From Eledone cirrhosa (Eukaryota), in assembly GCA_964016885.1 (NCBI GenBank), contig OZ024743.1, positions 292,020,001 through 292,084,000 of the forward strand: a DNA stretch of 64,000 nt. Reading direction: 5' to 3'. Below the pieces are notes generated by a model, which saw nothing but the letters and a program-made list of their open reading frames with translations, was not told the origin of the DNA and searched no databases. The position numbers and the translations under genes are program-made. Positions 210 to 60,130 of the stretch are shown one piece after another; position 1 is the first letter of the stretch, and each line of letters opens with the position of its first letter.

Positions 210-422
210 ATAAGGAGTTGACGGACACAGCATATTTAACAATGCCAGGACTGGTTGTATTTCAGCGTACTCAATAGATAATGTAGAACACATTCCAGAG
301 TATCACATAGTTATTAGCTTCAATACAACACACGTAAACGGTGCCTATATTAGTTCCCGGACTCGTTTCGGCCACACTTAATGCAGCAATAGGGTGCATT
401 GCAACAATGCATAATCGGCGGG
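210..422 (-). mobile_element. PLE-like pLTR fragment with degenerate hammerhead
   Basis: Minus strand 356-422 reads CCCG-CCGATTA...GGCC-GAAAC-GA-GTC-CGGG. Stem I and the GUC site are intact but the core is mutated. TTGAGTAC box at 267-274; abuts (TA)n. Confidence 0.4.
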
Positions 423-711
423 TATCGCCTAATCAATAGCCATTCGATCGACAAAATTCAACTCCAGTCGATGCCCGCTATGACTGTATGTGACGGCCAA
501 CGCAATAAAGTGATTAGCAACTGGAATATGATACAACTCCGTCCCCCGATCGGCCACCCATTTACAAATTTACGCGGTGGCAGGAGATTAGGAAACACAT
601 ATTTTCGTTCCCACCAAAAGCTCTCAGCCAACGTGTCTCAAACACACATTGATAAGATAGTGAAAATTTGGTTATTAGAAAAAGCAGTTCCACATCTTTG
701 CGCAGTAGAAT

Positions 712-831
712 AGAGAGAGAGAGAGAGGGAGAAAAAAAGAGAGAGAGAGAGAGAGAGAGAGAGAGAGAAAGAGAGAGAGAGAGAGAGAGAGAGAGAGAGA
801 GAGAGAGAGAGAGAGAGAGAGACTGAGAGAA
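712..831. repeat. (GA)n microsatellite
   Basis: Read directly from the sequence. Confidence 0.95.
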
Positions 832-2167
832 AGATCCAATTATGTATCTTTACTCCATCGTAAATTTATTTTTGTTTTCGTTAGAAATTGAAGATTATCG
901 TTGTATATATGTTTGTACTGATTGAGCCCATCTATGATAAAAAAGAAAAAACATTTTAACCGGCTTATATTCACTCATAGATTACACTGCCTATTTTATC
1001 ACGTCTTGCTTTTTTATAACAAAAGTGTGGTCTGAAGGTGATTTAACAGCCAACTCTACGAGCCGGAGTGATCATAACTTTTCAAGCCAACTACAACATA
1101 ATCTCGTGCTTTGCAAACACATATTTCGTATTCTTAGCTATCACTAAATAGAAGAAAATAAATCCATTAGAGAATTTTATATCATGCAAACAACCATTAT
1201 ATATGAGGTGTGATTTCGAATACAAACGAGCTTAATAATTTATTAACCAATACTTTAAGACTCAAATTTATTAGGAAGAAAATAAAGCTGGGAATATTTT
1301 GCCTCTAATTGTGTAAATATAGGATTATATTTATTAGTGTTGTTAAGAATTGAGCTTCGCAATCACATCTTTCTGGCATTAATTAATGCATAAAGCATTA
1401 AAAATTAAAATGGTAACTAGAAAAATATATGTGGCGAGAAAAAAATGACATTAGTTAATAATTGGCATCATTTTTCTTTTCTTCCGGCAATCCCCAAAGT
1501 TATTCCAGTAGTCTATTTCCTCCTGACTTTCTAAATCAGATGATGTATATAGAATTCAACTTAATGTTTCATATTTAAGAAGGTGTCCAATGATTTAAAG
1601 GTTACTCGTCTGGCTTTTCAAATACATCAACTATGTATCTGATTTCTCCTAAGTAAGGAAACGGTGAAACACTTAGTAAGCCGTTCGTAACCTTACAATA
1701 TAGATCAACATATTCTATATTTAATATATATAACCTCGCAGATAGGTCGATTGGAAACATGCGGCTAGAGAAAATGTTTCATAACAGGAAAGACCACAAA
1801 AACAAAATGAACGAAATGTGAAGCAGCTATTGCAAGTAGTGAAGGAAACAATAAAACAAAAATATATCTCTCGCGAAACGGATCATATTCTTTGCTCTTA
1901 TTTGAGATCGTGTGATTATTCCCTCAGCTAACTGCAGAGTCAGGCTTAGCTTTGACGCCACTATGTGCGAACGTTCACTTGCTAACGAAATTGCATTAAC
2001 TGAAGTATGTCTTAACTGGAAATGTTCATTCTTATATTTCCTGTGACTACTGACACTATGCTGATGTTAACAAGTTCGCATATTTGGACTGACAGATAAC
2101 ACGCTTCTCCCCCCCCCCCCTCTCTCTTACTCTCTCTCTCTCTTATGTATATATATATATATATAGG

Positions 2168-2359
2168 AGAAAGTATGACCCCGACGGCAGAGCTCAAGCC
2201 GTTTCGACGGCTATTTCTGTACTCCACAAATAGCCGTCGAAACGGCTTGAGCTCTGCCGTCGGGGTCATACTTTCTTCTATTACCCACTCTCTTACTCTA
2301 AGTATTAAGTACTCTGGTGTGTAATGGTCCATCTGGTTCCTTACCACAGCTCATTCGTT
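2168..2359 (+). mobile_element. Fold-back element carrying the 3' half of a hammerhead (family also at 30640-30870)
   Basis: About 48-bp inverted arms at 2168-2275 contain GAAAC-GGC-loop-GCC-GTC (stem III plus GUC). A tail with TTAAGTACTCT follows. Flanked by (TA)n. Confidence 0.65.
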
Positions 2360-2376
2360 ATATATATATATATATA

Positions 2377-56499: not shown

Positions 56500-57165
56500 A
56501 TAACTTTGGTAAATTTGATAACTTTGATATGTTTTCTGCCAGCGTTGGGCCTAACCTAATAGCACCACCTGGCGAAATCTTTTAGAATATGGGTTCCACA
56601 GTGTCAAAAATCTTCTTGTTTTGTACACCGTGGCTCATTCAAGTAAAGAATTGTCGTTTTCGGAGACTTGTCCAGATGTAAGGGCTTTATCCCAGATTTC
56701 CTGGAAGAATTTGTCCTATGAACGTTTGAATATTATTGAATCTGTTCCTACTTGGTGTATTTCGGGACCAGTTCAGATGCGAGGTTAATTTCTATAGTGA
56801 GCGGATAGCACGGAGACCAAAATTTGTGTGGATTTTAAAGGTATTGCCAACATCATTTTGTCAATATTGTTAAAATGTTTTCCATATCAAACAGATGCTG
56901 TTGATCACTTGGCGGCGTTGGACAGAGTAGAGTGTCAGATTTTCTAGTCGACCATAATAGCCAAGGCACGCCACGCTGTCTATCTGTTTTTGTAATTGAC
57001 ATCTGGGCTATGGTGGACAACAGTATTCAAGGTTGGATCGGTCAAAAGTTGAGTAGAGTAGGGTAATGGTGTGAATTTCTCTAGAGGAGAATGTTGTGAG
57101 AATCCAGTAACAAATTCTGTGAGCCAAGTCAGCATTATTATTTATGTGAGTCCTCCAGCTCGACA
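56500..57165 (-). mobile_element. 3' fragment of a CR1-clade LINE related to 30940-33830
   Basis: Shares AACTTTGATA..TTGG(C/G)CC..CTAATAGCACCA.CTGGCGAA and the peptide LEYCCPP / YSVQRR. Confidence 0.75.
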
Positions 57166-57926
57166 ACAGCAAATTTGAATCGAAGAAAAATAAAATATCG
57201 TTAAAATAAAACAAGGTTCCTGGCGTTGTTAATGCTTTTAGGGTTTCACTTGAGGAAAGAGAATGTGGTAACTTTAATGCATCTTTTTTTACTAAGTGGA
57301 ACAGAACGTAAAGACGCTTTTCCTACCATATCAAGCGTTAAACTAACACATTTCTTCATTATACTGTGTTGTTTGCTTTGTTGTTTCCGTTTACTCTTTG
57401 CATACATATAAACTAATGAACTTAAATTGATACACACAATATTGAGTCGCTCTACCTTAAACAACAATGTGCCTAAATCAGAGCGCACTAAAAATCGAGA
57501 ATGTTTTTGATACATTTTCAACATCTTGCAAATATATATATTATTATATTATATATATATATATATTATTGAGTAAAATGACAGGAGACCGGACTGATGA
57601 AATTCAGCAAACACAATGTATATTTCAGTGGAGAGGTCAGATTACGTAAGATCCTGGTGGTATCATCAGATGTATATTGCATAATAGTTATAAAATAAAG
57701 GAATAATGGCAAACACGATCCAAGAGGCTATAAGGAGAAAAGTATTTTTAACTCGTAGGCTATTAATAGGGCTAGTTGTTGTCAGTTTGTCAGTGTTTAC
57801 TGAAATAAATATTTGAAGTAATTTCACAAGTCTTGCCTCCTGACATTTTACTCAATAATAATTAACTCTCTTCTCGCACCACCATCAAGATTCAACATCA
57901 TAGATGGATGAGTTGCATATCGTCAC

Positions 57927-58650
57927 TGAGCAGCCTAATTTGCATATCGAGTAAGTTAGTCGGCCGGGCGTACCGAAAACGATAAATGGAAAAGAATGAA
58001 ATGAAATTCCATTTATTAATCTTAGTACGGCTGATACTTAAATGTAAGTATGTATACGTACATATATATATGTATACAGACGTACAGTAGTATGTATATG
58101 CAAATTAGGCTGCCCATCCGTTAATATGCATGTATGTATATATATATATATATATATATACATACTACTGTACGTCTATATACATATATGTATGTACGTA
58201 TACATACTTATATTTAAGTAACAGCCGTACTAAGAGTGAGAAATGAAATTTCATTGCATTCTTTTCCATTTATCGTTTTCGGTACGCCCGGCCGACTAAC
58301 TTACTCGATATGCAAATTAGGCTGCTCAGCCGTTAATATGCACAAGGAGTGTATATACTTTCAAACGTTCAATCATCTGACAGAAAGGTATACGATGCTG
58401 ACGATAGCTAATAAGCTTGAAACTAGTTCATCGTTTCTTTGTCAGTGTTGAACAAAAGGGCGACAATGGTTGCCGAACACTGTACGGCTTAATTCGGGCT
58501 GTTTGTTTACAAACAAATCAAACATTATAATAAATGTTCGGTAAACCCATACGTACATATATATAAGTGTGCATGTATGTATATATATATATATACATAG
58601 TACTGTACGTCTGTATACATATATGTATGTACGTATACATACTTACATTT
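57927..58650. mobile_element. Family B element with 5' inversion; hammerhead at 58392-58434 (+)
   Basis: ACGATG-CTGACGA-T-AGCT-AATA-AGCT-T-GAAAC-TA-GTT^CATCGT. Confidence 0.85.
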
Positions 58651-59569
58651 ATATATATATATATACATTAATTTCCTCAATCCAGTTACAAAAGGAAAGA
58701 TAAGGATCCAACACCCAGGCATTGGCAACCTTCAAACAGAGGAAAATCGAGCAGAGGTGACTGGGAAAACGTGACTACTGCAGCCTAAACTACAACTCCT
58801 GAGATACTGAATCAATCATAGTTCTGGAATTTCTTTAACAGAAATTCAGTGACACTCCAGTACATGCTGCAATTGACGTAGTGTTTCTATGCTTCCAGCA
58901 ACGCAGATTCTTGTCCTGTATCGCCTTGAAAGATAGAATGACAGATAAGAAAACTACAAAAGAGACACCGGCACAAATAAGGATAATCGTGACATAAGTT
59001 TGTATATTACGAGTGCCACACTCTGAGTCACAGAGATTATCATCTATGAAAGTTAACGAGCAATCATGTAAACCGCCGGTTTCACTTGAGGGGTCCCTTA
59101 GAAGAATGAAGCAACAACAGCTTTCGATCATTCAGTCTCAGGCAACGTATTGTGCACTATGTCTCCATCCAAAGGAGTTCTGTGTTCACGCGTAGAGCCA
59201 GGTTGTCATAATTGTTACTAAGGAATCTACTCTGCTTTTTAAATCAGAGTGACTTTTGTCGAAGACAGACTGCCAAGCAAGCCCAATGAGATATGTCAAC
59301 CCAGTTCTGTCATTTCAAAACATATCCGTCACGGGAAACCCAAAAACTGGGCTTCCGTTGTCAGATGTTATATGGACACAAGAAGTGTGAGACATTTTGC
59401 AGTGAATAGATACCCAAAACCACTCCCACCAGGGCAATGATAACCACAGGAGATACACACACTTATATTTATACATATATACACAGACGCACACTTGCAC
59501 AAACACACATTCACACACTCATATATATACATATATATCTATATATATATATACATATATATATATATA

Positions 59570-60130
59570 TGTACGTTATTCCGGGTTGAATCGGAGGTAA
59601 CCACAGTAAGTAAGGTACTCAAAACATAGCAGAGTATAAAAGTTTTAATATAGATGAGATTCTACAGGACTAGAACTGTTTCATTCATTAGAAATCATCA
59701 GGAATCTGGGTATCAAAAAATAAATATGGTATTTATAGGTCTCTACAAGTGGTAGGAGAGGGTGGGGAGTGGGATGGGTGCAGGTCATTGGTTGATAGAA
59801 AAGCGAATTCATTAAAAGCTAATTCTACAAAGCTATAGTTTATTTTTATTTATTTATGTTTTTAGAGTAACAAGGGCAGACAGAATTCTATAAACAGGTT
59901 CCGGATGGCATACCATTCCTTGTCATTAAGTTTCTCTTAAGCTAACAGGTGTCTATAAAATCAGTGGGGGGTCAGTCATGGTCGATAGAATTAAAGAAAA
60001 GGGAGATTCTTTAAAAGCTAAAGTCATTAAGGTTCTACTAAGTGACAAAGGTCTAGAGAATTCTGCAGACAGATTCAAAATACTGAGTGCATATCTTACT
60101 ATTATCTTCGAACTGCTCTTAAACTAATCA
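59570..60130 (-). mobile_element. Family S element (longer copy); hammerhead at 59657-59707
   Basis: AGATTC-CTGATGA-T-TTC-TAAT-GAA-T-GAAAC-AG-loop-CT-GTA^GAATCT. Confidence 0.8.

What the first reader, a model, noticed from the sequence alone, without database searches (positions are those of the whole stretch)
267..59622. Shared TTGAGTAC(TCT) box 35-70 nt from the 3' end of unrelated hammerhead families
Seen: on the HHR-sense strand, downstream of the ribozyme and shortly before the (TA)n junction, the motif appears at 267-274, 2305-2315 (TTAAGTACTCT), 11276-11286 (TAGAGTACTCT), 13667-13677 (CTGAGTGCTCT), 30686-30696, 40576-40583, 47530-47540, 48340-48347 and 59615-59622. That covers at least six families with otherwise different tails. 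Inference: it is a cis-signal such as an RT or endonuclease recognition site, a 3'-end formation signal or a promoter element for the next monomer. I do not recognise it as a described PLE feature.
Basis: partly seen in the sequence, partly recalled or inferred. Interest (0 to 1): 0.72.

Follow-up and report, generated by a model that had tools for sequence, protein, structure and literature searches.

The report
Twin hairpins mark Penelope retroelement ends
The shared box is the 3' half of a small bulged hairpin that sits in two copies just behind the two end points of Hydra-type Penelope-like jumping genes from several animals, and it likely tells the element's telomerase-related enzyme where to start copying, which would explain their long-puzzling one-sided 'tails'.

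Summary
The box is real: 16 GAGYRC boxes lie 35-85 nt before (TA)n, against 3.9±1.9 in shuffles, and the tails around it are not homologous. It is the 3' strand and flank of a hairpin: RCTC, variable paired stem, 2-nt bulge, GAGY, RCTCT. About 12 families in the window carry it. Loci fetched only by Hydra-clade protein motifs carry it too: 14 of 23 families, null 2.0, with strong covariation. Native tandem junctions read hammerhead, hairpin a, 33-39 nt, hairpin b, ATG (13 of 14). Inserted copies end mostly 2-7 nt before a hairpin, usually at TAT, so the one-sided PLE tail is the a-to-b interval. Best reading (inferred, 0.6): each hairpin positions an internal reverse-transcription start, one per target strand. 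Main rival: a cut 5' of the hairpin, as SsnA makes on ssDNA. Not found in Rfam, in 7 literature searches, or in this scan's earlier notes. No biochemistry; hairpin b was not seen for the window's own families.

The parts
264..301 (-). Family A hairpin (269-301) and box; decayed hammerhead about 350-420
2287..2315 (+). Family B copy 1 hairpin and box (one outer pair broken); inverted short arm ends 5 nt before the hairpin position
2435..2464 (-).
6747..6790 (+). Family H copy 2, decayed hairpin
11276..11389 (-).
11974..12018 (-). Family H copy 1 hairpin (6-bp inner stem) and box; hammerhead 12079-12123; short arm ends 4 nt before the hairpin position
13577..13712 (+). Family D: minimal hammerhead (core 13581, cut 13610), hairpin 13653-13672, box 13667-13677, end at 13712
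14237..14527 (+). 5'-truncated remnant of a Hydra-clade GIY-YIG coding region (no hairpin found with it)
   Evidence: tblastn E 7e-16 with ORFs of fetched loci
29350..29388 (+). Family N hairpin with GCTC/GAGC outer stem; no hammerhead found upstream
29676..29704 (-). Family I copy 1 hairpin and box; short arm (hammerhead 30143-30197 +) ends 7 nt before the hairpin position
30686..30714 (-). Family B copy 2 hairpin and box; best hit of the model trained on outside loci
   Evidence: E 5e-5
34441..35248 (+). Weak Hydra-type endonuclease remnant (34441-34626), 3' region, hammerhead-like core at 35092, short end at TA
   Evidence: tblastn E 5e-5; hammerhead read by eye
35525..35554 (+). Family I copy 2 hairpin and box
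38648..38688 (+). Family O hairpin (GCTC/GAGC then CACAT); short arm ends 3 nt before it
40532..40735 (-). Family E inverted pair: hammerhead 40624-40662, hairpin 40578-40596, box 40573-40583, long end 40532; short arm ends 5 nt before the hairpin position
41247..41305 (+). Solo tail between TA runs with GTTC/GAAC hairpin (41253-41283); near-identical copy at 40430-40492 (-)
46587..46616 (-). Family M hairpin with compensated GTTC/GAAC outer stem (second copy 47114-47152); short arm ends 4 nt before the hairpin position
47460..48293 (-). Family F inverted pair: hammerhead 47658-47707, hairpin 47535-47594 with long inner arm, box 47530-47540, long end 47460; short arm ends 5 nt before the hairpin position
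48322..48389 (+). Solo tail of family E between TA runs: starts 5 nt before the hairpin (48327-48345) and stops at the long end
59571..59707 (-). Family E copy 3: hammerhead 59663-59701, hairpin 59617-59635, box 59612-59622

Best explanation
The box is the 3' strand and flank of a conserved bulged hairpin that occurs twice in the 5' leader of Hydra-clade Penelope-like elements, and each hairpin likely binds the element's own protein on the RNA template and fixes a reverse-transcription start a few bases 5' of itself. Shown: the structure (TAT, about 3 nt, RCTC, any paired stem, 2-nt bulge starting with T, GAGY, RCTCT); its order in native tandem junctions (hammerhead, hairpin a, 33-39 nt, hairpin b, ATG); and that copies end just 5' of a or of b. 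Inferred: the nicked (TA)n target pairs with the UAU before the hairpin and primes cDNA; the two target strands are primed at a and at b, probably by two subunits; the two cDNAs are joined head to head. That gives an inverted pair in which only the arm started at b carries hairpin a, i.e. the one-sided tail. Hairpin b is not copied into such arms, so it must act on the template, not on the product. Solo tails would be run-off products from the first b site of an RNA whose 5' end lies at a (inferred). The window's families are inferred to be truncated Hydra-clade copies.
For: Independent set: 128 matches to a Hydra endonuclease motif in 127 loci. Of 27 hammerhead families linked to it, 23 have 100 nt or more after the cut and 14 of these show the box at +53 to +87; shuffles give mean 2.0, max 6; upstream control 2 of 53 copies against 27 of 53. 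Inner stem, anchored on sequence only: 86 of 116 cells paired against 59.6±4.4, max 76 of 10,000 permutations; 93% paired, 33 double changes, 0/500; 94%, 61 double changes on a second set. Outer-stem compensation: GC to AU in 11 rows, UA to AU in 2 (GCAC/GTGC, L131, L133), GTTC/GAAC in family M. A model trained only on outside loci ranks five window sites first and finds 18 hits at E<0.06 in 13 new loci, all 18 after a hammerhead, before a Hydra ORF, or 35 nt before a TA junction. Ends: 24 of 30 partner copies stop 1-9 nt before a hairpin, 21 at 2-7; all 11 window pairs with both arms stop 3-9 nt before it (C read). TAT at -8..-3 in 39 of 64 hairpins against 4 and 9 in control windows. Spacer 33-39 nt in 13 of 14 junctions. 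Long end 4 nt before hairpin b in L007 and L133; box-to-TA distance 35-44 nt in 9 of 11 outside copies, as that geometry predicts. Reads of family F break off 3 nt before the hairpin into a (GAT)n tract (205 reads). Precedent: a Poseidon-clade PLE starts cDNA internally at two sites that bound the tail, extends both target strands and needs RNA 3' of the start (PMC11167929). ORF fold is closest to telomerase RT.
Against: No biochemical or RNA data. The link long end to hairpin b rests on two same-element cases plus distances; no native junction with hairpin b was seen for any window family, and their box-to-end distance is longer and more variable (35-70 nt). No hairpin-bearing window family is joined to a Hydra ORF. 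9 of 23 outside families showed no box; 8 of the 9 are single copies that may stop at the short end, but this is not shown. The hairpin is not unusually stable: z below -2 in only 2 of 13 window tails, and some fold otherwise. G-U against A-C counts (17 and 8; null 32 and 23) do not tell RNA from DNA strand. 5' ends at site a (L007, solo tails) need an extra assumption, whereas a cut at a explains them directly. The descriptor was drawn from these sites.
Confidence: 0.6

Rival explanations
1. The hairpin is a cleavage signal: the element's GIY-YIG domain (or another nuclease, or the RNA itself) cuts single-stranded RNA or sense-strand DNA 3-7 nt 5' of it. Cuts at a and b give both 3' ends, the 5' end of full-length copies and the solo tail as the a-to-b fragment.
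For: 5' ends at site a: full-length L007 starts inside hairpin a right after a TA run; solo tails at 48322, 41247 and in L003 start 4-6 nt before it. SsnA, a bacterial GIY-YIG protein, binds an ssDNA hairpin by sequence and structure, needs the base just after the stem, and cuts a few nucleotides upstream (PMC11893778 section 8). Craig et al. ascribe the tail to endonuclease resolution; Frangieh et al. report that the D. virilis endonuclease needs the tail and that RNA-seq read ends fall on the two sites.
Against: Internal initiation without a reported cut is what was measured for a PLE. SsnA does not act on RNA. A symmetric cut predicts copies that begin at b; none is clear here (L069 is ambiguous, L058 and L135 begin 12-25 nt earlier). 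Too few fixed bases, and offsets that differ among families, for a self-cleaving ribozyme (inference).
Confidence: 0.22
2. The two hairpins serve transcription or translation of the next monomer (start site at a, leader structure before the ATG); copy ends fall beside them only because a TA-rich patch lies there.
For: Both hairpins lie in the 5' leader, roughly 16-45 nt before the Hydra ATG; full-length copies begin at a; pLTR promoters with TATA and Inr-like motifs are proposed for other PLEs (PMC3846280 passages).
Against: Ends cluster at 2-7 nt before both hairpins although other TA sites lie in the same tails; the a-b spacer is nearly fixed while hairpin length varies; a double-stranded promoter box would not need a covarying stem.
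Confidence: 0.1
3. Leftover homology or chance: the families descend from one ancestor and the box is only the last recognisable trace.
For: All carriers probably belong to one clade; some window copies are decayed.
Against: Flanks are unalignable between families while pairing is kept through double changes in seven of eight pairs; enrichment is far above shuffles.
Confidence: 0.03

Closest known systems
Hydra clade of Penelope-like elements (Craig et al. 2021, PMC8557442)
   Same: Short C-terminal GIY-YIG ORF with RWK, DKT and CxCx5C motifs, canonical hammerheads, (TA)n targets, inverted 5'-truncated pairs, one-sided tail. The hairpin can be read by eye in their consensus file: Hydra-2_Amil and Hydra-2_Ajap 3' ends, two copies at the 5' end of Hydra-1_Ajap, variants in Hydra-1_Crog; none seen in Hydra-1_Obim.
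   Different: The passages and section read describe no leader hairpin and do not tie the ends to one; the tail here is about 60-65 nt in outside loci and up to 140 nt in the window, not 30-40.
Poseidon PLE of Anolis (PAc), internal RT initiation (Frangieh et al. 2024, PMC11167929)
   Same: Two internal start sites bounding the tail; both target strands extended; RNA 3' of the start needed; hammerhead upstream.
   Different: Other clade; starts lie inside the ORF; binding motif not identified; its template lacks this sequence. By eye a different 3'-bulged hairpin begins about 3 nt after the +111-118 site (printed template; not folded with a tool).
SsnA and its NTS hairpin (PMC11893778)
   Same: GIY-YIG protein; hairpin read by sequence and structure; conserved base just 3' of the stem; event a few nucleotides 5' of the hairpin.
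   Different: Stand-alone bacterial ssDNA nuclease, inactive on RNA, no RT, single hairpin of different sequence.
3' stem-loops recognised by LINE reverse transcriptases (L2/UnaL2, R2 3' UTR; recalled, not read here)
   Same: Small structured RNA signal that recruits the element's RT.
   Different: Those lie 5' of the start site and are copied; here the hairpin lies 3' of the end it marks, is doubled, and hairpin b is not copied into the arm.
Non-LTR retrozymes (PMC7229834; bioRxiv 10.64898/2026.07.22.740005)
   Same: Type I hammerheads in short PLE-derived repeats.
   Different: Retrozymes are tandem monomers; the carriers here are mostly inverted truncated pairs and solo tails. No such hairpin in the text read.

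Membership tests
Hydra-clade PLE (outside loci) | Single ORF under 3 kb with PLE-type RT and C-terminal GIY-YIG region | tested here: met
   ORFs of 704-744 aa with YRDDG; best fold matches are telomerase RTs. Pfam and PDB sequence searches gave no useful hit; the GIY-YIG fold itself was not separately confirmed.
Hydra-clade PLE (outside loci) | RWK motif, DKT, CxCx5C linker | tested here: met
   Alignment A2 shows MRWK, ADKT and CxCx4-6C, as in Craig section 11.
Hydra-clade PLE (outside loci) | Canonical hammerhead near the 3' end; (TA)n insertion | tested here: met
   33 of 52 matches with 450 nt or more downstream have a hammerhead; many end in TA-type tracts.
Hydra-clade PLE (outside loci) | Placement in the Hydra clade by RT phylogeny | not tested
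   No tree with other PLE clades was built; L001-L003 carry the hammerhead listed for Hydra-2_aMil.
Hydra-clade PLE (window families A-O) | Physical link to a Hydra ORF | tested here: inconclusive
   Hydra endonuclease remnants at 14237-14527 and 34441-34626, but not joined to a hairpin-bearing tail; the carriers are 5'-truncated.
PLE insertion structure (window) | Inverted truncated arms, one-sided tail, hammerhead, microsatellite target | tested here: met
   11 arm pairs; hammerheads.
Known Rfam RNA family | Match to a curated covariance model | tested here: not met
   Ten loci with hairpins, E up to 5: five weak matches, none on a hairpin. In the window scan only the best 150 of 240 matches were shown, none on a hairpin.
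SsnA/NTS-type cleavage site | Cleavage of single-stranded nucleic acid just 5' of the hairpin by the GIY-YIG domain | not testable with these tools
   Needs an in vitro assay.
Internal RT start signal (PAc-like) | cDNA starts 5' of the hairpin and depends on it | not testable with these tools
   Only the genomic footprint was tested.
Non-LTR retrozyme | Tandem monomers each with a complete hammerhead | tested here: not met
   Hairpin carriers in the window are inverted pairs, single arms or solo tails.

The most novel reading that the evidence does not exclude
A portable tag of about 35 nt (UAU, bulged GCUC/GAGC hairpin, ACUCU) is the origin of reverse transcription of Hydra retroelements. Two tags at a fixed spacing load the two halves of a dimeric telomerase-related RT, one per target strand, each starting 5' of its own tag. 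One rule then yields the inverted arms, the one-sided tail, the pseudo-LTR redundancy and solo tails as strong-stop-like products, and any RNA placed 5' of such a tag pair would be written into (TA)n.
Probability: 0.4. Interest if true: 0.87.

Novelty: new variant of a known kind. Interest (0 to 1): 0.74.

Why it matters
How PLEs choose their ends and why they form inverted pairs with a tail on one side has been open since Penelope was described; the one in vitro study located internal starts but not the signal. Here a short element, conserved by covariation across host-derived contigs and published consensi from several animal phyla, sits at a fixed offset from both ends. That turns the question into a few point mutations and gives a defined RNA ligand for structural work on the RTs closest to telomerase. 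It also gives a nucleotide marker to assign ORF-less hammerhead repeats to the Hydra clade and to set consensus boundaries.

Tried and rejected
Protein-coding reading: the window variants look synonymous in the frame L-S-T-L, but in native loci the box lies upstream of the ATG and 4 of 29 have a TA bulge that makes a stop in that frame; rejected. Palindromic dsDNA box or RNA self-dimer site: GAGCACTC is not self-complementary and the true partner is the upstream RCTC; rejected as the main reading. Homodimer prediction for residues 6-490 of an L040 ORF: no verdict. No RNA holder listed among runs. No whole genome held, so no genome-wide consensus. Viral contigs gave no Hydra loci. A control scan for non-Hydra hammerheads in genome contigs returned one locus on a contig already held, so clade specificity rests on the Craig supplement (T[TCA]GAGCACT: 6 hits in 584,131 characters, 4 in Hydra leaders or tails, 2 inside Naiad/Chlamys coding-like sequence; matches split by line ends would be missed). 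The TTGAGTAG near the end of Hydra-1_Amil first looked like the box, but relatives show it lies before the short end (family 1). 14230-14240, 26993 and 29424 boxes close to TA runs were set aside as chance. In one search the most supported variable sites avoid the hairpin base of family F, but only 40 or so of 115 rows were shown, so it is not counted; read-end piles at 47597 and 47496 match read length. Alignment A4 misplaced two rows and was not used; A3 has one misplaced row, left in. The last sequence was a wrong stretch and is ignored. Four loci on contigs already held were dropped before the counts, five. Pfam, NCBIfam and PDB sequence searches did not name the ORF.

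
Full report
1. Observation. All nine sites hold the stated letters on the element strand. GAGYRC occurs 16 times 35-85 nt before a TA run against 3.9±1.9 (max 8) in 60 shuffles. The stretch between box and TA run is alike within families but not between them: 0 of 114 between-family pairs at p<0.01. The window is an AT-rich animal sequence crowded with (TA)n and hammerheads (25 hits, 15 families). No whole genome is held.

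2. Anatomy in the window. Most carriers are inverted, 5'-truncated pairs. One arm stops early (short end), the other runs on 60-140 nt (long end), and the box lies in that extension. This is the known one-sided PLE tail. The extension begins with a hairpin: RCTC, a paired inner stem of any sequence, a loop, a 2-nt bulge starting with T, GAGY, then RCTCT. A descriptor finds 11 such hairpins 25-130 nt before TA against 0.7±0.8 in shuffles (drawn from these sites, so descriptive only). About 12 families carry it (A-F, H, I, K, M, N, O). In all 11 pairs with both arms the short arm ends 3-9 nt before the hairpin. Solo tails lie between TA runs at 48322-48389 and 41247-41305; they start 4-6 nt before the hairpin. 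Of the 15 hammerhead families, 7 show the hairpin, 2 are doubtful, 4 show none and 2 have only short ends.

3. Lead from print. The Hydra-clade consensi in the supplement of Craig et al. 2021 (PMC8557442) show the same hairpin by eye, with a G-C in place of the A-T pair: at the 3' ends of Hydra-2_Amil and Hydra-2_Ajap, twice at the very 5' end of Hydra-1_Ajap, in variant form in Hydra-1_Crog, and not in Hydra-1_Obim. The 9-mer T[TCA]GAGCACT occurs 6 times in the whole supplement, 4 in Hydra leaders or tails.

4. Independent test. Their ORFs have RWK, DKT, YRDDG and CxCx5C, and the predicted fold matches telomerase RT best. Of 27 hammerhead families linked to the motif, 23 have 100 nt or more after the cut; 14 show the box at +53 to +87, against 2.0 (max 6) in 1000 shuffles; 27 of 53 copies have it against 2 of 53 upstream. 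The 9 without it may be short-ended; this is not shown. With arms chosen by sequence only, 86 of 116 inner-stem cells pair against 59.6±4.4. On alignments: 93% paired, 33 double changes, 0 of 500 shuffles; 94%, 61 double changes, seven of eight pairs with double changes (window plus new loci, one row misplaced). These shuffles ignore kinship, but the inner stems are unalignable between families. Outer-stem variants compensate: ACTC/GAGT, GCAC/GTGC, GTTC/GAAC. A covariance model built from outside loci alone ranks five known window sites first and lists nine of them, plus the two family M copies, among 19 hits at E up to 10. In 13 further loci it gives 18 hits at E<0.06, all in tail or leader position. 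No Rfam family matches the hairpin.

5. Geometry. Native tandem junctions read: hammerhead, 35-70 nt, hairpin a, spacer, hairpin b, ATG of the Hydra ORF. The spacer from the end of box a to hairpin b is 33-39 nt in 13 of 14 junctions; the exception holds a TA run. Comparing copies that stop with copies that go on, 24 of 30 stop 1-9 nt before a hairpin (21 at 2-7); 3 were spurious seeds, 2 were broken by indels, 1 kept a mutated hairpin. Two of these are long ends, 4 nt before hairpin b (L007, L133). TAT lies at -8..-3 in 39 of 64 hairpins against 4 and 9 in controls, and most ends fall on it. Full-length L007 begins at hairpin a directly after a TA run. Reads laid on family F show many copies and 205 reads that break off 3 nt before the hairpin into a (GAT)n tract; no continuation to a hairpin b was shown.

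6. Mechanism. Shown: structure, order, and the offset of ends. Since an arm that ends at b does not contain hairpin b, the hairpin must act before or at the start of copying. Frangieh et al. 2024 (PMC11167929) found for a Poseidon PLE two internal start sites that bound the tail, extension of both target strands, a need for RNA 3' of the start and a predicted dimer. I therefore infer (0.6) that each hairpin binds the element's protein and places the UAU before it on the nicked (TA)n primer; that the two target strands are primed at a and b; and that joining the two cDNAs head to head gives the inverted pair with hairpin a on one arm only. Solo tails would be run-offs from the first b site to an RNA 5' end at a. 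The chief rival (0.22) is a cut 5' of the hairpin: it explains 5' ends at a with no further assumption and has a precedent in SsnA, a GIY-YIG nuclease that binds an ssDNA hairpin and cuts a few bases upstream (PMC11893778). Against it, no copy clearly begins at b. A promoter or translation role (0.1) fits the leader position but not the offsets. Weak points: no biochemistry; the fold is not unusually stable; wobble counts do not tell RNA from DNA; hairpin b and a linked ORF were not seen for the window's families, whose box-to-end distance is longer (35-70 nt), so their clade is inferred from the hairpin, the geometry and two nearby Hydra remnants.

7. Prior art. Searches: (open-licence PMC and bioRxiv only; subscription papers and Repbase reports are not covered). 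Read: Craig 2021, passages, section 11, supplement parts 1, 2, 52, 53 and two searches; Frangieh 2024, parts 1-3 of 4, and a supplement search without hits (figures not visible, which may bear on the PAc stem-loop); the 2026 retrozyme preprint, parts 1-3 of 5 (supplements not seen); passages of PMC4209133, PMC7229834 and PMC3846280; passages and section 8 of PMC11893778. None of this text describes the hairpin or ties PLE ends to it. Pyatkov 2004 is known only through Frangieh. LINE stem-loops are recalled, not read. This scan's notes hold two PLE reports on other DNA, neither on this element.

8. Verdict. A real, apparently undescribed cis element of a known clade: new variant of a known kind. 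Interest 0.74, because it makes the origin of PLE ends and tails testable by point mutation.

Noticed in passing
window 48322-48389, 41247-41305, 40430-40492; L003 about 1890-1945: Solo tails between TA-type runs that begin 4-6 nt before the hairpin; they look like strong-stop products or excised a-to-b fragments.
   Followed up: partly
window 46587-46616, 47114-47152, 41253-41288, 38648-38688: A sub-type with CACA(T/A) after the stem instead of RCTCT, in M with a compensated GTTC/GAAC stem; may mark a separate protein lineage.
   Followed up: partly
window 3530-4204, 36007-36620, 38812-39124, 45286-45843, 57926-58670: Family G is a high-copy tandem-like hammerhead unit with internal TA-rich spacers (retrozyme-like); a GTTC...TTGAAC pair lies only 4 nt after its cut site, a different geometry.
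   Followed up: no
L010, L020, L024, L059, L066, L075 (family 1), +15 to +35 after the cut: An extra stemless RCTC...GAGT hairpin before the short end, suggesting the module can be triplicated; window family C also has two.
   Followed up: no
window tails, last 5-30 nt before TA (e.g. 40536-40560, 29635-29655, 11930-11950): A second, sequence-variable hairpin near the long end in most families; E copies show a compensated pair (TCCG/CGGA against CCCG/CGGG).
   Followed up: no
L002, L070, L074, L086, L056, L129; reads at window 47598: Hydra copies also end in (TAA)n, (ATT)n, (ATAC)n, (GTAT)n and (GAT)n tracts, not only (TA)n.
   Followed up: no
window 57564-57925: Inverted element related to family F whose tail is interrupted by a family G copy.
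   Followed up: no
L001-L007, L128-L145: Several prokaryotic MAG or symbiont assemblies in the genome collection contain animal-type PLE sequence, likely host contamination.
   Followed up: no
window 4265-5868 and 9172-9579 (-); 31790-33612 (-): Broken ORFs that resemble Helitron Rep/helicase and a LINE endonuclease-RT (labels recalled, not tested).
   Followed up: no
window 24-164, 18259-18377, 28510-28662: Dispersed repeat with a tRNA-like head, SINE-type (label recalled).
   Followed up: no
Hydra ORFs, alignment A2: No Pfam family covers these 700-aa ORFs, so the clade is easily missed in annotation.
   Followed up: partly
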